Positions 28,849 to 49,668 of a stretch of 64,000 nucleotides of DNA are shown here, piece by piece (within the stretch, counting starts at the first letter, position 1; each line of letters starts with the position of its first letter). Below the pieces are notes generated by a model. It saw only the letters and a list, made by a program, of their open reading frames with translations. It searched no databases and had not been told where the DNA came from. The translations under genes were made by a program, and so were the position numbers. This DNA comes from an uncultured Candidatus Micrarchaeota archaeon. Lineage in GTDB: Archaea; Micrarchaeota; Micrarchaeia; Anstonellales; Bilamarchaeaceae. The DNA is taken from assembly GCA_903835385.1 (NCBI GenBank), contig CAILMQ010000032.1, positions 5,976-69,975 of the forward strand. The letters run 5' to 3'.

Positions 28849-28942
28849 GGGCCTGTAGCTCAGCTTGGTAGAGGATGAAATATCCACCAAAAGCGACGGA
28901 CTCTTAATCCGTGTGTCGAGAGTTCAAATCTCTCCAGGCCCG
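28849..28942 (+). tRNA. tRNA-Lys(CTT) with a 20-nt BHB intron in the D-arm (between positions 22 and 23)
   Basis: Exons assemble to GGGCCTG TA GCTC AGCTTGGTA GAGC G ACGGA CTCTTAA TCCGT GTGTC GAGAG TTCAAAT CTCTC CAGGCCC G. Intron 28872..28891. BHB: central helix TGGT/ACCA, 5' bulge AGA, 3' bulge AAA, inner helix GGAT/ATCC. Confidence 0.85.
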
Positions 28943-34095: not shown

Positions 34096-34116
34096 CGCCG
34101 TATGCATACATTATAC

Positions 34117-34369
34117 GGGCTAGAGTGGGGCCAGGGGTCCCAGCACCGCAAATCCCCTTAGGCGGCTCGAATGCCCGGGGCGTTGCCTGTTTCAGTTGCG
34201 CCTCTTTTCCTGAAGCGTAGACGTTCTGCCCTGTGTGGCGGAATGCCTCGTGAACCGGGTCAGGCCGAAAGGAGCAGCCCTAAGCGTTTCATTCCGTGCT
34301 CGCAGGACACAGAATCGAGCAGATGGACTGGAGCTCCACAGCTGTTTCAGCCGGCAAACCGGGAAGCCC
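34117..34369 (+). ncRNA. ffs: signal recognition particle (7S) RNA
   Basis: Helix-8 core GGGTCAGGCCGAAAGGAGCAGCCC with a GAAA tetraloop. Flanking helix-5 pairings: GGAATG/CATTCC, CTGTGT/ACACAG and GCTCGA/TCGAGC. The 5' GGGCT pairs with the 3' AGCCC. The exact ends are uncertain. Confidence 0.75.
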
Positions 34370-34414
34370 ATATTTCGTTAGTCTCCAGTTTTCAGTCTCG
34401 AGTTTTGCCTCAGG

Positions 34415-36195: not shown

Positions 36196-36301
36196 ATCCC
36201 GCCATATTTTTCATTGCGCTCTCGTTTGTTCATTGTCCGGCTGTGCGCCGGGCGCTATTCCTGTTTTTTAATACTTTTCTATTTACTATAAGAAACTTGC
36301 C

Positions 36302-36475
36302 GGGCCCGTGGCGCAGCCAGACACGAGTCTCGTGTTCCGAGTTCCGTGTCCTGCAGTGGATAGCGCAGCAGCCCTCTAAGGCCGATTTGGGCCAAGGACA
36401 GCTGATGGTCACGAGTTCAAAAGTGCGGGGGAACTGGAAACAGGAAACCCTGAACTGGATTTCTCGTCGGGCCCG
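36302..36475 (+). tRNA. tRNA-Arg(TCT) with three BHB introns (D-loop, anticodon loop 37/38, T-loop 59/60)
   Basis: Exons give GGGCCCG TG GCGC AGCCTGGATA GCGC A GCAGC CCTCTAA GCTGA TGGTC ACGAG TTCAAAT CTCGT CGGGCCC G. Introns: 36319..36356 (38 nt), 36379..36399 (21 nt) and 36422..36461 (40 nt). Each has a 4-bp central helix flanked by 3-nt bulges. Confidence 0.85.
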
Positions 36476-40716: not shown

Positions 40717-41379
40717 ATGGCGCGTGCGGTAGTGTTCGACTTCGACGGCGTGGTCGTGAAGAGCGAGCCGCTGCACTGCCGGACTTTCAGCGAGACGCTC
40801 GCCCCCCTGGGAATACGCATAGACCGGAGGCGCTGGTACAAGGAGTTCGCAGGCACCGGCTCGCACAGCATAATCGCCCGGCTGCTTGAGGAGAACGGAG
40901 TGAAGGCGGATATCGCTGCGCTCGTGAAATCGCGCAAGGAACGCTTCAGCGCCTGCGTGCGCCGGGGCGGGCTCAGGCCGACCAGGGGGCTTCGCAGGTT
41001 CCTGGCAATGATAAGAAAAAAGGGGATAATGACCGCCATAGCTTCGGGTGGGCACAGGGAGAACATCGAGCTCATATTGGGAAAACTCGGGCTGCTGGGG
41101 CAGTTCGATGCCATTGTCGGCTGCGAAGAGGCGAAGAACAGGAAGCCGCATCCGGAGATTTTCCTGAGAGCCGCGGAGCGGCTAGGGGTGCCTCCCGGCC
41201 AGTGCGTTGCCGTGGAGGACTCCATACCCGGCGCGGAATCGGCGAAAAGGGCGGGCATGGCGCTCGTGTGTTTCGATTCCCCGGCGAGCAAGTTTTTAAA
41301 TAACCCGTGCAGCAGAATGATAAACAGCTTCTCGGAGTTCCCGCTTGAGTTGCTGGATGGTTTCCATGATAAGGCTTGA
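40717..41379 (+). CDS. HAD-superfamily hydrolase (beta-phosphoglucomutase-like subfamily IA)
   Basis: VVFDFDGVVV (motif I), TASGG, K...PE.F and VEDS..G..SA..AGM (motif IV). Confidence 0.8.
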   Translation: MARAVVFDFDGVVVKSEPLHCRTFSETLAPLGIRIDRRRWYKEFAGTGSHSIIARLLEENGVKADIAALVKSRKERFSACVRRGGLRPTRGLRRFLAMIRKKGIMTAIASGGHRENIELILGKLGLLGQFDAIVGCEEAKNRKPHPEIFLRAAERLGVPPGQCVAVEDSIPGAESAKRAGMALVCFDSPASKFLNNPCSRMINSFSEFPLELLDGFHDKA

Positions 41380-42535
41380 GCTGGACCGGAAAAAGCGTTC
41401 CGTGAGCGTAAGGGAGCCGGCCGACGTCTCCTCTCTGCAGAACGGCTTCTACGGCCAGATGAAAAAGGGAGTGATAACGCTTTCGCCCGAGGAATCGCTT
41501 TACATAATGGACATACGGAACGGCAGGTGCTACGACGAAACCGGCAACGCCCTCACTTTCAACGGCCTCGCCTCGCTTTTCCTGAAGCAAAGAAAACTGC
41601 TGGCGCGCTATCTCACCTACAAGGACTGGAGGGACAAGGGGTTGATTGCGCGCGACGCAAGTGAGGCAACCGGCAATTACGGAAGGACGGCTATAAAGAA
41701 GTACACCGGCGGCAAGCTGGAACTGGATGCCTATTCGTTCGAGGGCGTGTTCTTCCCCGACGACCTGCTCACGGTGCTGGACGACGAGGTTGTCGGCAGG
41801 GAGCTATACGAGCGGCACTGGATAGGCCAGTTCGGGACCTACAAGGCCGCCCACAGGGGCAGGATAACCAAGCTCGACATCTACGAGACCGTGTTCCTGA
41901 TGAAGCACGGCGGGCTGCGGCTGGCGAACTCGGACCTCAAAAAGGTGGTTTCCGCGGCCTCCAAGCGCCTAAGGTTTTTCGCTGAGATGTACGAGGTCTA
42001 CGAGGACTGGATGAAGCGCGGCTACGTGGTGAAGAGCGGCTTCAAGTTCGGCACGCACTTCAGGATATATTTCCCCGGCGCCTCGCCCGTGCGGCTGGAG
42101 GCCGACTGGATGCACTCCAAGCACGTGCTCCATGTGTTCCCGCGCCGCGCGAAGATGATAATATCCGAATGGGCGCGCGCCATAAGGGTCGCGCACTCGG
42201 TGAAAAAAACGTTCATACTCGCTATTCCTGGCAAGGCCAGGGCGTCCAAAGCGAAGCGCCCTGTGCTGGACTTCCTCCTCTACCACCGCAAGGACGGCGG
42301 CATCGAGACGCCCAAGGACGGAAGCCCGAAATACCTCATGTACTCTCTTACCGAAGACGAGTACATAGGCGGCGAGGAGCTCGCCGGCGCGCTGGACGAG
42401 TGCAGGAAATTCGGCCTTGAGATGATAATGGCGATATCGGATAGGGAATCGTCGGTCACGCAGTACATGATAAGGCGCATCGCGCTTCCCGGAAGCGATT
42501 ACGAATACTTTGAAATTGAGTGGGTTCAGCCATGA
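41366..42535 (+). CDS. endA: tRNA-splicing endonuclease, long multi-unit form
   Basis: About 390 aa, roughly twice the size of a single EndA unit. Catalytic-unit signature GFKFGTHFRIYFPG...HSKHVLHV...HSVKKTFILA. An N-terminal EndA-like unit (YLTYKDWRDKGLIAR) and an extra C-terminal unit. Start ambiguous (41345, 41357 or 41366). Confidence 0.8.
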   Translation: MIRLELDRKKRSVSVREPADVSSLQNGFYGQMKKGVITLSPEESLYIMDIRNGRCYDETGNALTFNGLASLFLKQRKLLARYLTYKDWRDKGLIARDASEATGNYGRTAIKKYTGGKLELDAYSFEGVFFPDDLLTVLDDEVVGRELYERHWIGQFGTYKAAHRGRITKLDIYETVFLMKHGGLRLANSDLKKVVSAASKRLRFFAEMYEVYEDWMKRGYVVKSGFKFGTHFRIYFPGASPVRLEADWMHSKHVLHVFPRRAKMIISEWARAIRVAHSVKKTFILAIPGKARASKAKRPVLDFLLYHRKDGGIETPKDGSPKYLMYSLTEDEYIGGEELAGALDECRKFGLEMIMAISDRESSVTQYMIRRIALPGSDYEYFEIEWVQP

Positions 42536-44490: not shown

Positions 44491-45177
44491 ATGGACGAAA
44501 CAAGGAAAGTTGAAACACGGGCAAAAGCACTGAAACCATTGAGAAAGTTTGGCAAAATGCTTGTTGGCTCTGTTTTGGCTGCGGGCATTATGCTAGCTGC
44601 TTCAAAGCCATCCAGAGCGAGTTCAGTTGAATTGATGGCAGGAAACGAGAGGAGTACGTTGGACCTGAAAGCATCGGCTCCTGTTAATGACAAGCTAGGT
44701 GTTTTCATGAGGGCGAGGCCGTCAGTCGATTACAAGGGCGTAATCAGCTCATATGGCCTTGCAGACCTGGTCTTGAACCTAAGCAACGGGCTGGATGCCA
44801 TCAGTGAGGTCCGGGCTTTTGGCGGAAATGTGGTTCCAAGGGCGGGCATGAGATATTCCGCCAAAACAGAAAACGTCAGCTTGTGCACCGTTGCGACAAT
44901 CGGTTTGGATAGCAAACCTTACTTCGAATCGCTTACTCTTTTGGGTTATTTCCCGACGATCTACAAAACCCTGAAACTTTTTGCACAGGTTGAGAATATA
45001 AGCGATGTCAGTGCAACAGGGCATGATTCCAGCAAGCAGAGAATACGGCTTGGAGTGGAGCAGGGCGGGTGGGGAGCCGGAGCTGCAGTGGATCTCACGG
45101 AAACCGGAAACAGCCCGACGATTGCGAATGGAACCTTTGACTGGAATGCCGGGGGCTATGTTTCCAGGAAATTCTGA
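44491..45177 (+). CDS. secreted beta-rich hypothetical protein ending in Phe
   Basis: The ATG at 44491 follows GGTGAGG. TM/signal segment, then alternating hydrophobic strands and a C-terminal ...GGYVSRKF. Lower-GC region. Confidence 0.5.
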   Translation: MDETRKVETRAKALKPLRKFGKMLVGSVLAAGIMLAASKPSRASSVELMAGNERSTLDLKASAPVNDKLGVFMRARPSVDYKGVISSYGLADLVLNLSNGLDAISEVRAFGGNVVPRAGMRYSAKTENVSLCTVATIGLDSKPYFESLTLLGYFPTIYKTLKLFAQVENISDVSATGHDSSKQRIRLGVEQGGWGAGAAVDLTETGNSPTIANGTFDWNAGGYVSRKF

Positions 45178-45841: not shown

Positions 45842-45999
45842 CGGGCCCGACGAGAAATTCAGTTCAGGGTTTCCTGTTTCCAGTTCCCCGGGACATTTGA
45901 ACTCGTGACCTTCGCCTTAGGAGAGCGTCGCTCTATCCATTTCAGGCCTTGGCCTGAAAATCTTGGTCAGCAGACCGAGGCTAGCTGAGCTACGGGCCC
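45842..45999 (-). tRNA. tRNA-Arg(CCT) with two BHB introns (D-loop and T-loop 59/60)
   Basis: Reverse complement exons: GGGCCCG TA GCTC AGCTTGGATA GAGC G ACGCT CTCCTAA GGCGA AGGTC ACGAG TTCAAAT CTCGT CGGGCCC G. Introns at 45940..45982 (43 nt, central helix TCAG/CTGA) and 45856..45895 (40 nt, central helix TTCA/TGAA). Confidence 0.85.
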
Positions 46000-49531: not shown

Positions 49532-49668
49532 GGGCCTGTAGCTCAGCTCGGTTAGAGCGACGGTCTTATATGGCACGTTCTAATACACGGTTATTAGGAC
49601 GAGTCTGGGCTAGCCGTAGAGGGGTCAAGACCCCGCGGAAGTCCGGAGTTCAAATCTCCGCAGGCCCA
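49532..49668 (+). tRNA. tRNA-Ile(TAT) with two BHB introns (anticodon loop 37/38 and variable loop 45/46)
   Basis: Exons: GGGCCTG TA GCTC AGCTCGGTTA GAGC G ACGGT CTTATAA GCCGT AGGTC CGGAG TTCAAAT CTCCG CAGGCCC A. Introns at 49571..49611 (41 nt) and 49620..49640 (21 nt). The BHB-rule splice sites fix the anticodon as TAT. Confidence 0.8.

What the first reader, a model, noticed from the sequence alone, without database searches (positions are those of the whole stretch)
36302..36475. tRNA-Arg(TCT) split by three introns in the D-loop, anticodon loop and T-loop
The gene is 174 nt for a 75-nt mature tRNA. Three separate BHB motifs can be drawn:
- D-loop intron 36319..36356: central helix GCAG/CTGC, bulges CCA and AGT, inner helix GACACG/CGTGTC.
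- Canonical 37/38 intron 36379..36399: inner helix GGCC/GGCC.
- T-loop intron 36422..36461 between positions 59 and 60: central helix TTCA/TGGA, bulges AAA and TTT.

Splicing by the two-nucleotides-into-the-bulge rule yields a clean cloverleaf with D-loop AGCCTGGATA and T-loop TTCAAAT. Triple-intron tRNAs are known mainly from Thermoproteales. Finding one next to a multi-unit EndA gene indicates unusually heavy dependence on the splicing machinery.
Basis: seen in the sequence. Interest (0 to 1): 0.75.

Follow-up and report, generated by a model that had tools for sequence, protein, structure and literature searches.

The report
Three-intron arginine tRNA gene in Micrarchaeota
This is a real arginine tRNA gene cut into four pieces by three short introns, in a tiny archaeon (Micrarchaeota) that also encodes the broad-specificity enzyme able to remove them; it is a good new example of a known phenomenon, not a new kind of thing.

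Summary
Window 36302-36475 (+) is a 174-nt gene. Its four exons (36302-18, 36357-78, 36400-21, 36462-75) join into a 75-nt cloverleaf that ARAGORN calls tRNA-Arg(UCU). ARAGORN and Rfam both miss the unspliced gene.

- **Junctions:** each of the three is confirmed by orthologs in related Micrarchaeota contigs that lack that intron and read straight through the predicted join.
- **Intron counts:** of 35 close orthologs, 1 has no intron, 7 have one, 11 have two and 16 have three.
- **Covariation:** the acceptor and T stems show compensatory changes across the introns.
- **Splice motifs:** the T-loop intron (59/60) has a strict bulge-helix-bulge motif. The 37/38 intron has one C·A mismatch. The D-loop intron has a relaxed motif with no outer helix.
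- **Enzyme:** the endonuclease 4.9 kb downstream is a full-length homolog of the ARMAN-2 ε2 three-unit EndA, with catalytic and specificity residues conserved.

- Position 33 is C here, but U in all 44 related gene copies examined.
- A second hidden tRNA, Arg(CCU) at 45842-45999 (-), carries a near-identical T-loop intron.
- Multi-intron tRNAs are already reported for ARMAN-1/2.

Verdict: a new member of a known kind, of moderate-to-low interest.

The parts
36264..36273 (+). Putative archaeal promoter (A/T-rich TATA-like box TTTTTTAATA, 29-38 nt upstream of tRNA position 1)
   Evidence: The block TTTTTAATAC(T/C)TTTCTATT(T/C)ACTATA is conserved upstream of the orthologs in L018, L041, L044, L052 and L054. 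Its role as a promoter is inferred from position only.
36302..36318 (+). Exon 1: acceptor 5' strand, U8 G9, D-stem 5' strand, D-loop A14-C17
   Evidence: Intron-less orthologs read GCGCAGCC|TGGATAGCGC across this junction.
36319..36356 (+). Intron 1 (38 nt), in the D-loop between C17 and U17a. Relaxed HBh' motif: central helix GCAG/CUGC, bulges CC|A and AG|U, inner helix GACACG/CGUGUC, no outer helix.
   Evidence: Across 22 distinct orthologous introns the central helix averages 3.91/4 pairs. The inner helix averages 4.45/5 pairs, against 2.72/5 in between-gene controls, and is maintained by wholly different sequences.
36357..36378 (+). Exon 2: rest of the D-loop (UGGAUA, including A20), D-stem 3' strand, A26, anticodon stem 5' strand, and loop C32 C33 U34 C35 U36 A37
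   Evidence: C33 lies at 36374. All 34 metagenome orthologs, 7 genome orthologs and 3 further loci have T there.
36379..36399 (+). Intron 2 (21 nt), at the canonical 37/38 position. Motif: anticodon stem, central helix CCUC/AAGG (3 pairs plus C·A), bulges UA|A and AC|A, inner helix GGCC/GGCC.
   Evidence: L009, L027, L032 and L045 lack this intron and read CTTCTA|AGCTGA. The central helix averages 3.59/4 pairs over 29 distinct introns.
36400..36421 (+). Exon 3: A38, anticodon stem 3' strand (GCUGA, giving G27·A43), variable loop UGGUC, T-stem 5' strand ACGAG, T-loop U54-A59
   Evidence: G27·A43 is conserved in the whole close ortholog group. T44 (36406) is C in relatives.
36422..36461 (+). Intron 3 (40 nt), in the T-loop at 59/60. 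Strict hBHBh' motif: T-stem, central helix UUCA/UGGA, bulges AA|A and UU|U, inner helix GUGCGGGG/CCCUGAAC (7 of 8 pairs).
   Evidence: Fifteen close orthologs have no T-loop intron and read GTTCAAATC uninterrupted. The central helix averages 3.88/4 pairs in 16 distinct 59/60 introns. ARMAN-2 tRNA-Cys and tRNA-Pro have introns at the same position (PMC3239211).
36462..36475 (+). Exon 4: U60, T-stem 3' strand CUCGU, acceptor 3' strand CGGGCCC, discriminator G73. No CCA is encoded.
   Evidence: Compensatory changes link it to exon 1 (3 acceptor pairs) and exon 3 (3 T-stem pairs).
41345..42535 (+). ε2-type three-unit tRNA splicing endonuclease (EndA), 396 aa; the enzyme inferred to cut all three motifs
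   Evidence: Pfam PF01974 (E = 4e-27) and PF02778. It aligns full-length with ARMAN-2 EndA, PDB 4FZ2 (E = 2.4e-135). In that alignment the catalytic Y236/H251/K282, the specificity-loop K161, and R275/W384 of ARMAN-2 (PMC3488258) match Y242/H257/K288, K167, and R281/W393 here.

Best explanation
Window 36302-36475 (+) is the single syntenic tRNA-Arg(UCU) gene of a Micrarchaeota archaeon related to ARMAN-2. It is interrupted by three endonuclease-type introns: in the D-loop (17/17a), the anticodon loop (37/38) and the T-loop (59/60).

Proposed mechanism (inferred from the families involved):
- The 174-nt precursor is transcribed from an A/T-rich promoter about 30 nt upstream.
- The three splice motifs use non-overlapping nucleotides, so they can form at the same time and be cut in any order.
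- Each motif presents two 3-nt bulges separated by a 4-bp helix made of exon nucleotides paired with the 3' end of the intron.
- The ε2 homodimeric EndA encoded 4.9 kb downstream cuts after the second bulge nucleotide on each side.
- An RtcB-type ligase joins the four exons.
- RNase P and the CCA-adding enzyme finish a 75-nt tRNA that decodes AGA (and AGG).

Shown here:
- the exon assembly and exact junctions;
- conservation of the splice-motif helices;
- presence and intactness of the endonuclease gene.

Inferred, not shown:
- transcription, actual cleavage and ligation, and the order of events;
- function of this particular copy, which carries C33.
For: - **Spliced product:** ARAGORN calls it tRNA-Arg(tct), with A14, G18G19, A20, A21, the TTCAAAT T-loop and G73.
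- **Synteny:** orthologs sit in the same place, upstream of the UPF0147 and PolD small-subunit genes, in Micrarchaeota genomes.
- **Natural intron absence:** this confirms each junction. L009, L027, L032 and L045 lack the 37/38 intron. L018, L023, L026, L028, L036 and others lack the T-loop intron. L020, L027, L028, L036 and L040-L043 lack the D-loop intron. L045 has none.
- **Rfam tRNA scores:** the model scores the intron-less L045 at 68.2 bits and the single-intron L042, L036 and L028 at 54.7, 49.4 and 46.9 bits.
- **Covariation:** in 17 distinct spliced sequences, 95.2% of cells pair. Six pairs show double compensatory changes (3 acceptor, 3 T-stem). None of 500 shuffles reaches this, and slid controls pair at 33-42%.
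- **Splice-motif helices:** they are conserved across divergent introns.
- **Precursor stability:** the precursor folds better than shuffled sequence, z = -3.41. A structure holding all three motifs at once is sterically consistent, at -63.9 kcal/mol.
- **Enzyme:** the EndA is an ε2 type with catalytic and specificity residues conserved (PMC3488258). That enzyme type cleaves strict and relaxed motifs in vitro (PMC3239211).
- **Need for the tRNA:** AGA codons are used, 17 of 176 Arg codons in nine ORFs.
Against: - **No expression data:** there is no RNA evidence of any kind.
- **Standard finders miss it:** ARAGORN and Rfam do not detect the unspliced gene. This is expected for three introns.
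- **C33 is an outlier:** C33 at 36374 is unique among the 44 related gene copies examined. U33 is otherwise nearly universal. C33 blocks t6A37 formation by the bacterial and yeast enzymes (PMC8887486). This copy could therefore be impaired, or the base could be an assembly error.
- **Weaker motifs:** the D-loop motif lacks an outer helix, and the 37/38 central helix has a C·A mismatch.
- **Energy model:** the three-motif structure is 13 kcal/mol above the predicted minimum. Nearest-neighbour models penalise 3-nt bulges.
- **Partial circularity:** in the covariation set the 3' end of each ortholog was located partly by requiring complementarity. That inflates the percentage paired, though not the compensatory pattern itself.
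Confidence: 0.9

Rival explanations
1. The gene architecture is real, but this particular copy is crippled or on its way to becoming a pseudogene. The U33-to-C change damages the anticodon-loop U-turn and probably t6A37 formation. AGA decoding would then be done by another copy outside the 64-kb window.
For: C33 is unique among the 44 related gene copies examined, including the closest species seen in three independent assemblies. C33 is an anti-determinant for t6A in bacteria and yeast, and occurs naturally only in initiator tRNAs of multicellular eukaryotes (PMC8887486).
Against: All four stems, all conserved tertiary nucleotides, all three splice motifs and the upstream promoter block are intact. 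The gene occupies the single syntenic position that the functional ortholog has in relatives. Only two transitions separate its exons from those of the closest species, whose flanks are 85-92% identical. No second copy was found in the window.
Confidence: 0.07
2. C33 is a sequencing or assembly error, or a minority allele. The true sequence is U33 and the gene is an ordinary member of the three-intron ortholog group.
For: It is a single-base transition at a universally conserved site in a metagenome-type assembly.
Against: A second nearby transition (T44 instead of C44) shows that ordinary divergence exists in the exons. C33 turns the U33·G wobble of the closest relative's central helix into a C:G pair, so it is not obviously deleterious for splicing. 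It could not be checked, because contigs carrying identical neighbouring proteins exist in ENA but no DNA is held.
Confidence: 0.3
3. The cloverleaf is a chance assembly: unrelated hairpins in an intergenic spacer that happen to splice into something tRNA-like.
For: Standard tRNA finders do not report the locus.
Against: There are 34 metagenome orthologs and 7 genome orthologs with conserved exons, variable introns, intron presence/absence at exactly the predicted junctions, and compensatory stem changes. The intron-less ortholog scores 68.2 bits.
Confidence: 0.01

Closest known systems
[quoted passage not shown] 2011, PMC3239211)
   Same: Same phylum and the same ε2 EndA type. Both have a T-loop intron at 59/60, non-canonical and multiple introns, and a mix of strict and relaxed motifs. 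In both, genes are missed by default tRNA finders.
   Different: This gene has three introns spread over the D, anticodon and T loops. The texts I could read describe 'multiple introns' for ARMAN-1/2 without stating a three-intron case. The host is a different, higher-GC (~57%) lineage, and its EndA is clearly diverged from ARMAN-2's. This copy also has C33.
Triple-intron tRNA genes of Thermoproteales (Pyrobaculum, Thermofilum, Caldivirga; Sugahara et al. 2008, cited in PMC8450103 and PMC3488258)
   Same: Up to three BHB-type introns per gene, at canonical and non-canonical sites. All are removed by a broad-specificity endonuclease. Intron presence or absence varies between close relatives.
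   Different: Those hosts are Crenarchaeota with a heterotetrameric (αβ)2 EndA carrying the Crenarchaea-specific loop. Here the enzyme is the single-chain three-unit ε2 with the ARMAN-type loop, in a DPANN-type archaeon.
Intron transposition and shared introns between tRNA genes in Thermoproteales (Fujishima et al. 2010, as cited in PMC3239211)
   Same: The T-loop intron of Arg(UCU) is 36/40 identical to the T-loop intron of the Arg(CCU) gene 9.5 kb away, at the same position.
   Different: Here the flanking 3' exons are also identical. Gene conversion or duplication of the 3' half explains the match as well as transposition does.

Membership tests
Archaeal multi-intron (BHB-intron) tRNA gene | Colinear exons that join into a canonical cloverleaf with the conserved tRNA nucleotides | tested here: met
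   ARAGORN on the spliced 75-mer. Covariation supports the acceptor and T stems. The intron-less ortholog scores 68.2 bits with Rfam RF00005.
Archaeal multi-intron (BHB-intron) tRNA gene | Each exon-intron boundary lies in a bulge-helix-bulge or accepted relaxed motif, cut 2 nt into each 3-nt bulge, with the bulges 4 bp apart | tested here: met
   T-loop: strict hBHBh'. 37/38: hBHBh' with one C·A mismatch. D-loop: HBh' without an outer helix, a relaxed class accepted by ε2 and (αβ)2 enzymes (PMC3239211).
Archaeal multi-intron (BHB-intron) tRNA gene | The genome encodes a splicing endonuclease able to cut non-canonical or relaxed motifs | tested here: met
   ε2 EndA at 41345-42535.
Archaeal multi-intron (BHB-intron) tRNA gene | The precursor is transcribed and spliced to a mature tRNA in vivo | not testable with these tools
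   No RNA data are available. Needs small-RNA sequencing, a northern blot or an in vitro cleavage assay.
tRNA-Arg(UCU) isoacceptor | Anticodon U34 C35 U36 with A37 and A38; Arg identity nucleotides A20 and C35 | tested here: met
   The loop is CCUCUAA and the D-loop is AGCCUGGAUA with A20. That A20/C35 are Arg identity elements is from my own knowledge of ArgRS recognition.
tRNA-Arg(UCU) isoacceptor | U33 preceding the anticodon (U-turn) | tested here: not met
   C at 36374. All 44 related gene copies have T.
ε2 three-unit tRNA splicing endonuclease (ARMAN-2 type) | A single ~390-aa chain aligning end to end with the αN-α-βC protomer of PDB 4FZ2 | tested here: met
   Query residues 10-396 align to chain residues 4-387, E = 2.4e-135.
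ε2 three-unit tRNA splicing endonuclease (ARMAN-2 type) | Catalytic triad Y236/H251/K282, and K161 in the ARMAN-specific loop GTYKVSEH (PMC3488258) | tested here: met
   In the alignment these match Y242, H257 and K288, and K167 in GTYKAAHR. R275 and W384 match R281 and W393.
Split or permuted tRNA gene | Exons on separate loci or in permuted order | tested here: not met
   All four exons are colinear on one strand within 174 nt.

The most novel reading that the evidence does not exclude
C33 is genuine. The only AGA-decoding tRNA of this organism would then be encoded with a non-U33 anticodon loop. Three readings follow:
- the cell tolerates a C33 elongator tRNA;
- the cell restores U33 by C-to-U editing;
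- the change was favoured because it converts the U33·G wobble of the splice-motif central helix into a C:G pair, meaning splicing constraints shape an anticodon-loop nucleotide.

Taken with 8 introns in the 4 tRNA genes of this window, and a near-identical intron shared by two Arg tRNA genes, this lineage would be an extreme case of tRNA genes evolving under the demands of the splicing machinery.
Probability: 0.1. Interest if true: 0.6.

Novelty: new member of a known kind. Interest (0 to 1): 0.3.

Why it matters
- **Annotation:** default tRNA finders (ARAGORN, Rfam) miss essential tRNA genes in Micrarchaeota. Here 2 of the 4 tRNA genes in 64 kb went undetected, so genomes of this group will look as if they lack decoders for some codons.
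- **Range of the phenomenon:** triple-intron tRNAs are not confined to Thermoproteales. They are common in a clade that uses the unrelated ε2 endonuclease solution: 16 of 35 close orthologs of this one gene have three introns.
- **A possible study system:** the ortholog set carries 0 to 3 introns at five or more sites, with intron-less alleles surviving. That makes it a usable natural system for studying tRNA intron gain and loss.

None of this changes current understanding of how such introns work.

Tried and rejected
**Standard finders.**
- ARAGORN on the whole window and on the unspliced gene found nothing.
- Rfam at gathering and at E ≤ 10 found no tRNA at the locus, only a meaningless 7.7-bit ilvB-OMG match on the other strand.

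**Alternative reading of the anticodon arm.**
- I considered a register shifted by one base, giving a CUA anticodon.
- It needs an extra base between the D-stem and position 26 and a 6-nt variable loop.
- Intron-less orthologs contradict it, so I rejected it.

**G27·A43 as a sign of a mis-drawn junction.** I rejected this because the mismatch is conserved in the whole close ortholog group.

**Spliced aligner errors.**
- My first spliced aligner misplaced some T-arm junctions where T-stems differ from the reference, and an index slip produced garbage. Both were fixed.
- L019 (odd 3' end) and L025 (truncated contig) were left out.

**Attempts to verify C33.** Exact-protein look-ups of the neighbouring UPF0147 and PolD small-subunit proteins found ENA contigs, but no DNA is held.

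**ARMAN-2 comparison.**
- The ARMAN-2 ortholog itself was not recovered. It was not recognisable among the top 120 PolD hits.
- The supplementary tRNA table of PMC3239211 is not held.

**Other.**
- A self-comparison of EndA was uninformative.
- A tandem GGAA(A)C motif at 45099-45111 lies inside an ORF and is probably chance.

Full report
**1. The observation**

Removing 36319-36356, 36379-36399 and 36422-36461 leaves 75 nt. ARAGORN folds these as tRNA-Arg(tct), with these features:
- a 7-bp acceptor stem, a 4-bp D-stem and a 5-bp T-stem;
- D-loop AGCCUGGAUA, containing A14, G18G19, A20 and A21;
- T-loop UUCAAAU;
- discriminator G73.

The unspliced gene is invisible to ARAGORN and to the Rfam tRNA model, both at gathering threshold and at E ≤ 10. 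That is expected with 99 nt of insertions at three sites.

**2. Host and context**

The ORF at 41345-42535 has both tRNA-intron-endonuclease Pfam domains. It aligns end to end with the ARMAN-2 ε2 three-unit EndA, PDB 4FZ2 (E = 2.4e-135). The residues shown experimentally to matter in ARMAN-2 are all conserved in that alignment (PMC3488258):

| ARMAN-2 residue | Role | Window residue |
|---|---|---|
| Y236, H251, K282 | catalytic triad | Y242, H257, K288 |
| K161 (loop GTYKVSEH) | specificity loop | K167 (loop GTYKAAHR) |
| R275, W384 | substrate recognition | R281, W393 |

The tRNA lies 33 nt upstream of a UPF0147 gene and a PolD small-subunit gene. A genome scan with PolD returned Micrarchaeota genomes at 61-67% identity. 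The window averages about 57% GC. The host is therefore a Micrarchaeota relative of ARMAN-2. In ARMAN-2, 56% of tRNA genes are disrupted, and 59/60 introns and multiple-intron genes are already described (PMC3239211; PMC4033280, Table 1).

**3. Comparative test of the exon assembly**

Orthologs sit at the same syntenic position in seven of the genome loci. A metagenome scan with exon 2, allowing C or T at position 33, gave 34 more contigs.

A spliced alignment followed by an anchored T-arm procedure resolved 35 close orthologs including the window. All splice to a 75-nt cloverleaf with T-loop TTCAAAT.

| Introns per gene | Orthologs |
|---|---|
| 0 | 1 (L045) |
| 1 | 7 |
| 2 | 11 |
| 3 | 16 (including the window) |

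- **D-loop:** GCGCAGCC|TGGATAGCGC in L020, L027, L028, L036, L040-L043 and L045.
- **Anticodon loop:** CTTCTA|AGCTGA in L009, L027, L032 and L045.
- **T-loop:** GTTCAAA|TC in 15 loci.

The Rfam tRNA model scores the intron-less L045 at 68.2 bits. It scores the single-intron L042, L036 and L028 at 54.7, 49.4 and 46.9 bits. It misses the three-intron L044, just as it misses the window.

On 17 distinct spliced sequences:
- The cloverleaf pairs in 95.2% of cells, against 33-42% when the partner is slid.
- Six pairs show changes on both sides: three in the acceptor stem, linking exons 1 and 4, and three in the T stem, across the T-loop intron.
- None of 500 shuffles reaches these values.

One caveat applies. 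I located each 3' end partly by requiring complementarity, which inflates the percentage paired. The unconstrained aligner had already found the same 3' ends in nearly all cases.

**4. The three splice motifs**

- **T-loop intron (59/60).** This is a strict hBHBh' motif:
  - The outer helix is the T stem, ACGAG/CUCGU.
  - The central helix is UUCA/UGGA, with one G·U.
  - The bulges are AA|A and UU|U.
  - The inner helix is GUGCGGGG/CCCUGAAC, with 7 of 8 pairs.
- **Anticodon intron (37/38).** This has the canonical register, with C32 paired to the third base from the intron's 3' end:
  - The central helix is C32:G, C33:G, U34:A and C35·A.
  - The bulges are UA|A and AC|A.
  - The inner helix is GGCC/GGCC.
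  - RNAfold prefers a slightly different register with symmetric internal loops.
  - Orthologs whose introns end GAAG-AA|A form a perfect CUUC/GAAG central helix in the canonical register.
- **D-loop intron (between C17 and U17a).**
  - The central helix GCAG/CUGC uses G12-G15.
  - The bulges are CC|A and AG|U, and a 6-bp inner helix follows.
  - There is no outer helix. C11:G18 is the only possible pair, so the motif is a relaxed HBh' type.
  - It competes with two D-stem pairs until it is spliced out.

Conservation across orthologs:

| Intron class | Distinct introns | Central helix, mean pairs |
|---|---|---|
| D-loop | 22 | 3.91 / 4 |
| 37/38 | 29 | 3.59 / 4 |
| T-loop 59/60 | 16 | 3.88 / 4 |

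The D-loop inner helix is kept by entirely different sequences: 4.45/5 pairs, against 2.72/5 in between-gene controls. The inner helices of the other two classes are more variable in a fixed register. This fits the relaxed motifs reported for ARMAN-2.

The three motifs use non-overlapping nucleotides (gene positions 12-56, 67-104 and 110-166). No intron has to be removed before another motif can form. A structure with all three motifs scores -63.9 kcal/mol, against a minimum of -77. The precursor as a whole is more stable than shuffles, z = -3.41.

**5.

(a) **C33.** The spliced anticodon loop is CCUCUAA, with C33 at 36374.
- All 34 metagenome orthologs, the 7 genome orthologs and the 3 extra loci have T there.
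- These include the closest species: L044, L052 and L053 are three independent assemblies, 85-92% identical in flanking DNA, with the same three introns.
- The other three tRNAs in the window have U33.
- Natural C33 is known in initiator tRNAs of multicellular eukaryotes. It blocks t6A37 formation by bacterial and yeast enzymes (PMC8887486).
- In the precursor, C33 turns the relative's U33·G into C33:G in the central helix.
- I could not check the base against independent assemblies. Contigs encoding identical neighbouring proteins exist in ENA, but no DNA is held.

(b) **G27·A43 is not an artefact.** It is conserved throughout the close ortholog group.

(c) **A second hidden tRNA.** A heuristic scan found tRNA-Arg(CCU) at 45842-45999 (-).
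- It is 158 nt long, with a 43-nt D-loop intron and a 40-nt 59/60 intron.
- ARAGORN calls the spliced form Arg(cct).
- Its T-loop intron is 36/40 identical to the one in Arg(UCU), and the flanking 3' exons are identical.

(d) **Intron density.** The window also holds Lys(CUU) with one intron in the D-stem 3' strand and Ile(UAU) with two. Together, the four tRNA genes carry eight introns.

**6. Need for the tRNA**

AGA makes up 17 of 176 Arg codons in nine confident ORFs, so a UCU decoder is required. No second copy is present in the window.

**7. Comparison with what is known**

- Archaeal tRNA genes with up to three introns are established, mainly in Thermoproteales (PMC8450103, PMC3488258, PMC4033280).
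- Multiple-intron tRNAs are listed for ARMAN-1/2 (PMC4033280).
- ε2 EndA cleaves strict and relaxed motifs in vitro (PMC3239211, PMC3488258).
- In the library I could search, I found no paper describing a three-intron tRNA in Micrarchaeota or the ortholog-level intron polymorphism seen here.
- The supplementary tRNA table of the ARMAN paper is not held. I cannot exclude that a three-intron ARMAN-2 gene is already tabulated.

**8. Verdict**

The locus is a new member of a known kind: a multi-intron archaeal tRNA gene served by a broad-specificity endonuclease. It lies in a lineage where heavy tRNA disruption is already documented.

The only unexpected element is C33. It may be an assembly error (about 0.3), a tolerated or damaging real change, or, least likely, something more interesting.

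Interest is about 0.3.

Noticed in passing
window 45842-45999 (-): Hidden tRNA-Arg(CCU) gene, 158 nt, missed by ARAGORN and Rfam. It has a D-loop intron (43 nt, same site as in Arg-UCU) and a T-loop 59/60 intron (40 nt). That T-loop intron is 36/40 identical to the Arg(UCU) T-loop intron, and the 3' exons are identical. This suggests gene conversion, duplication or intron transposition between the two Arg genes.
   Followed up: partly
window 36374: C at tRNA position 33, giving anticodon loop CCUCUAA. All 44 related gene copies have T. The base could not be cross-checked against independent assemblies.
   Followed up: partly
window 28849-28942 (+) and 49532-49668 (+): tRNA-Lys(CUU) has one 20-nt non-canonical intron in the D-stem 3' strand. 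tRNA-Ile(UAU) has two introns (37/38, 41 nt; variable region, about 21 nt). With the two Arg genes, that makes 8 introns in the 4 tRNA genes of this window. The Ile(UAU) gene matches the ARMAN trait of using UAU instead of modified CAU (PMC3239211).
   Followed up: partly
window 36334-36345 (-), 36430-36448 (+), 45869-45887 (-); also introns and 3' flanks in L006, L010, L021, L050: Tandem GGAA(A)C heptads occur 5 times in the window against 0.8 expected, and 3 of the 5 lie inside tRNA introns. Similar CCGGAAAC/GTTTCCGG repeats recur in orthologous introns and downstream flanks. This may mark a family of related or mobile introns.
   Followed up: partly
L025, L030, L031, L034, L036, L039 (tRNA-Arg(UCU) orthologs): These carry an extra intron class in the variable region, flanked by a direct repeat of the exon sequence AGCTGACGGT. 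L030 and L031 differ by the copy number of a 58-nt unit made of intron plus a repeated exon piece.
   Followed up: no
L010, L023, L026, L029, L040, L045, L047, L049 (40-110 nt downstream of the tRNA): A short hairpin-containing spacer is followed by a repeat of the tRNA 3' end (ACAACGGGCCCG or ACAGGCCCG) and the same trailer. It looks like an attachment-site duplication left by an integrating element, or a small inserted element. The window itself lacks it.
   Followed up: no
window 34115-34371 (+): Signal recognition particle RNA. Rfam's best hit is the 'bacterial large SRP' model at 70.9 bits, with an archaeal-clan overlap suppressed. It is syntenic with L044.
   Followed up: no
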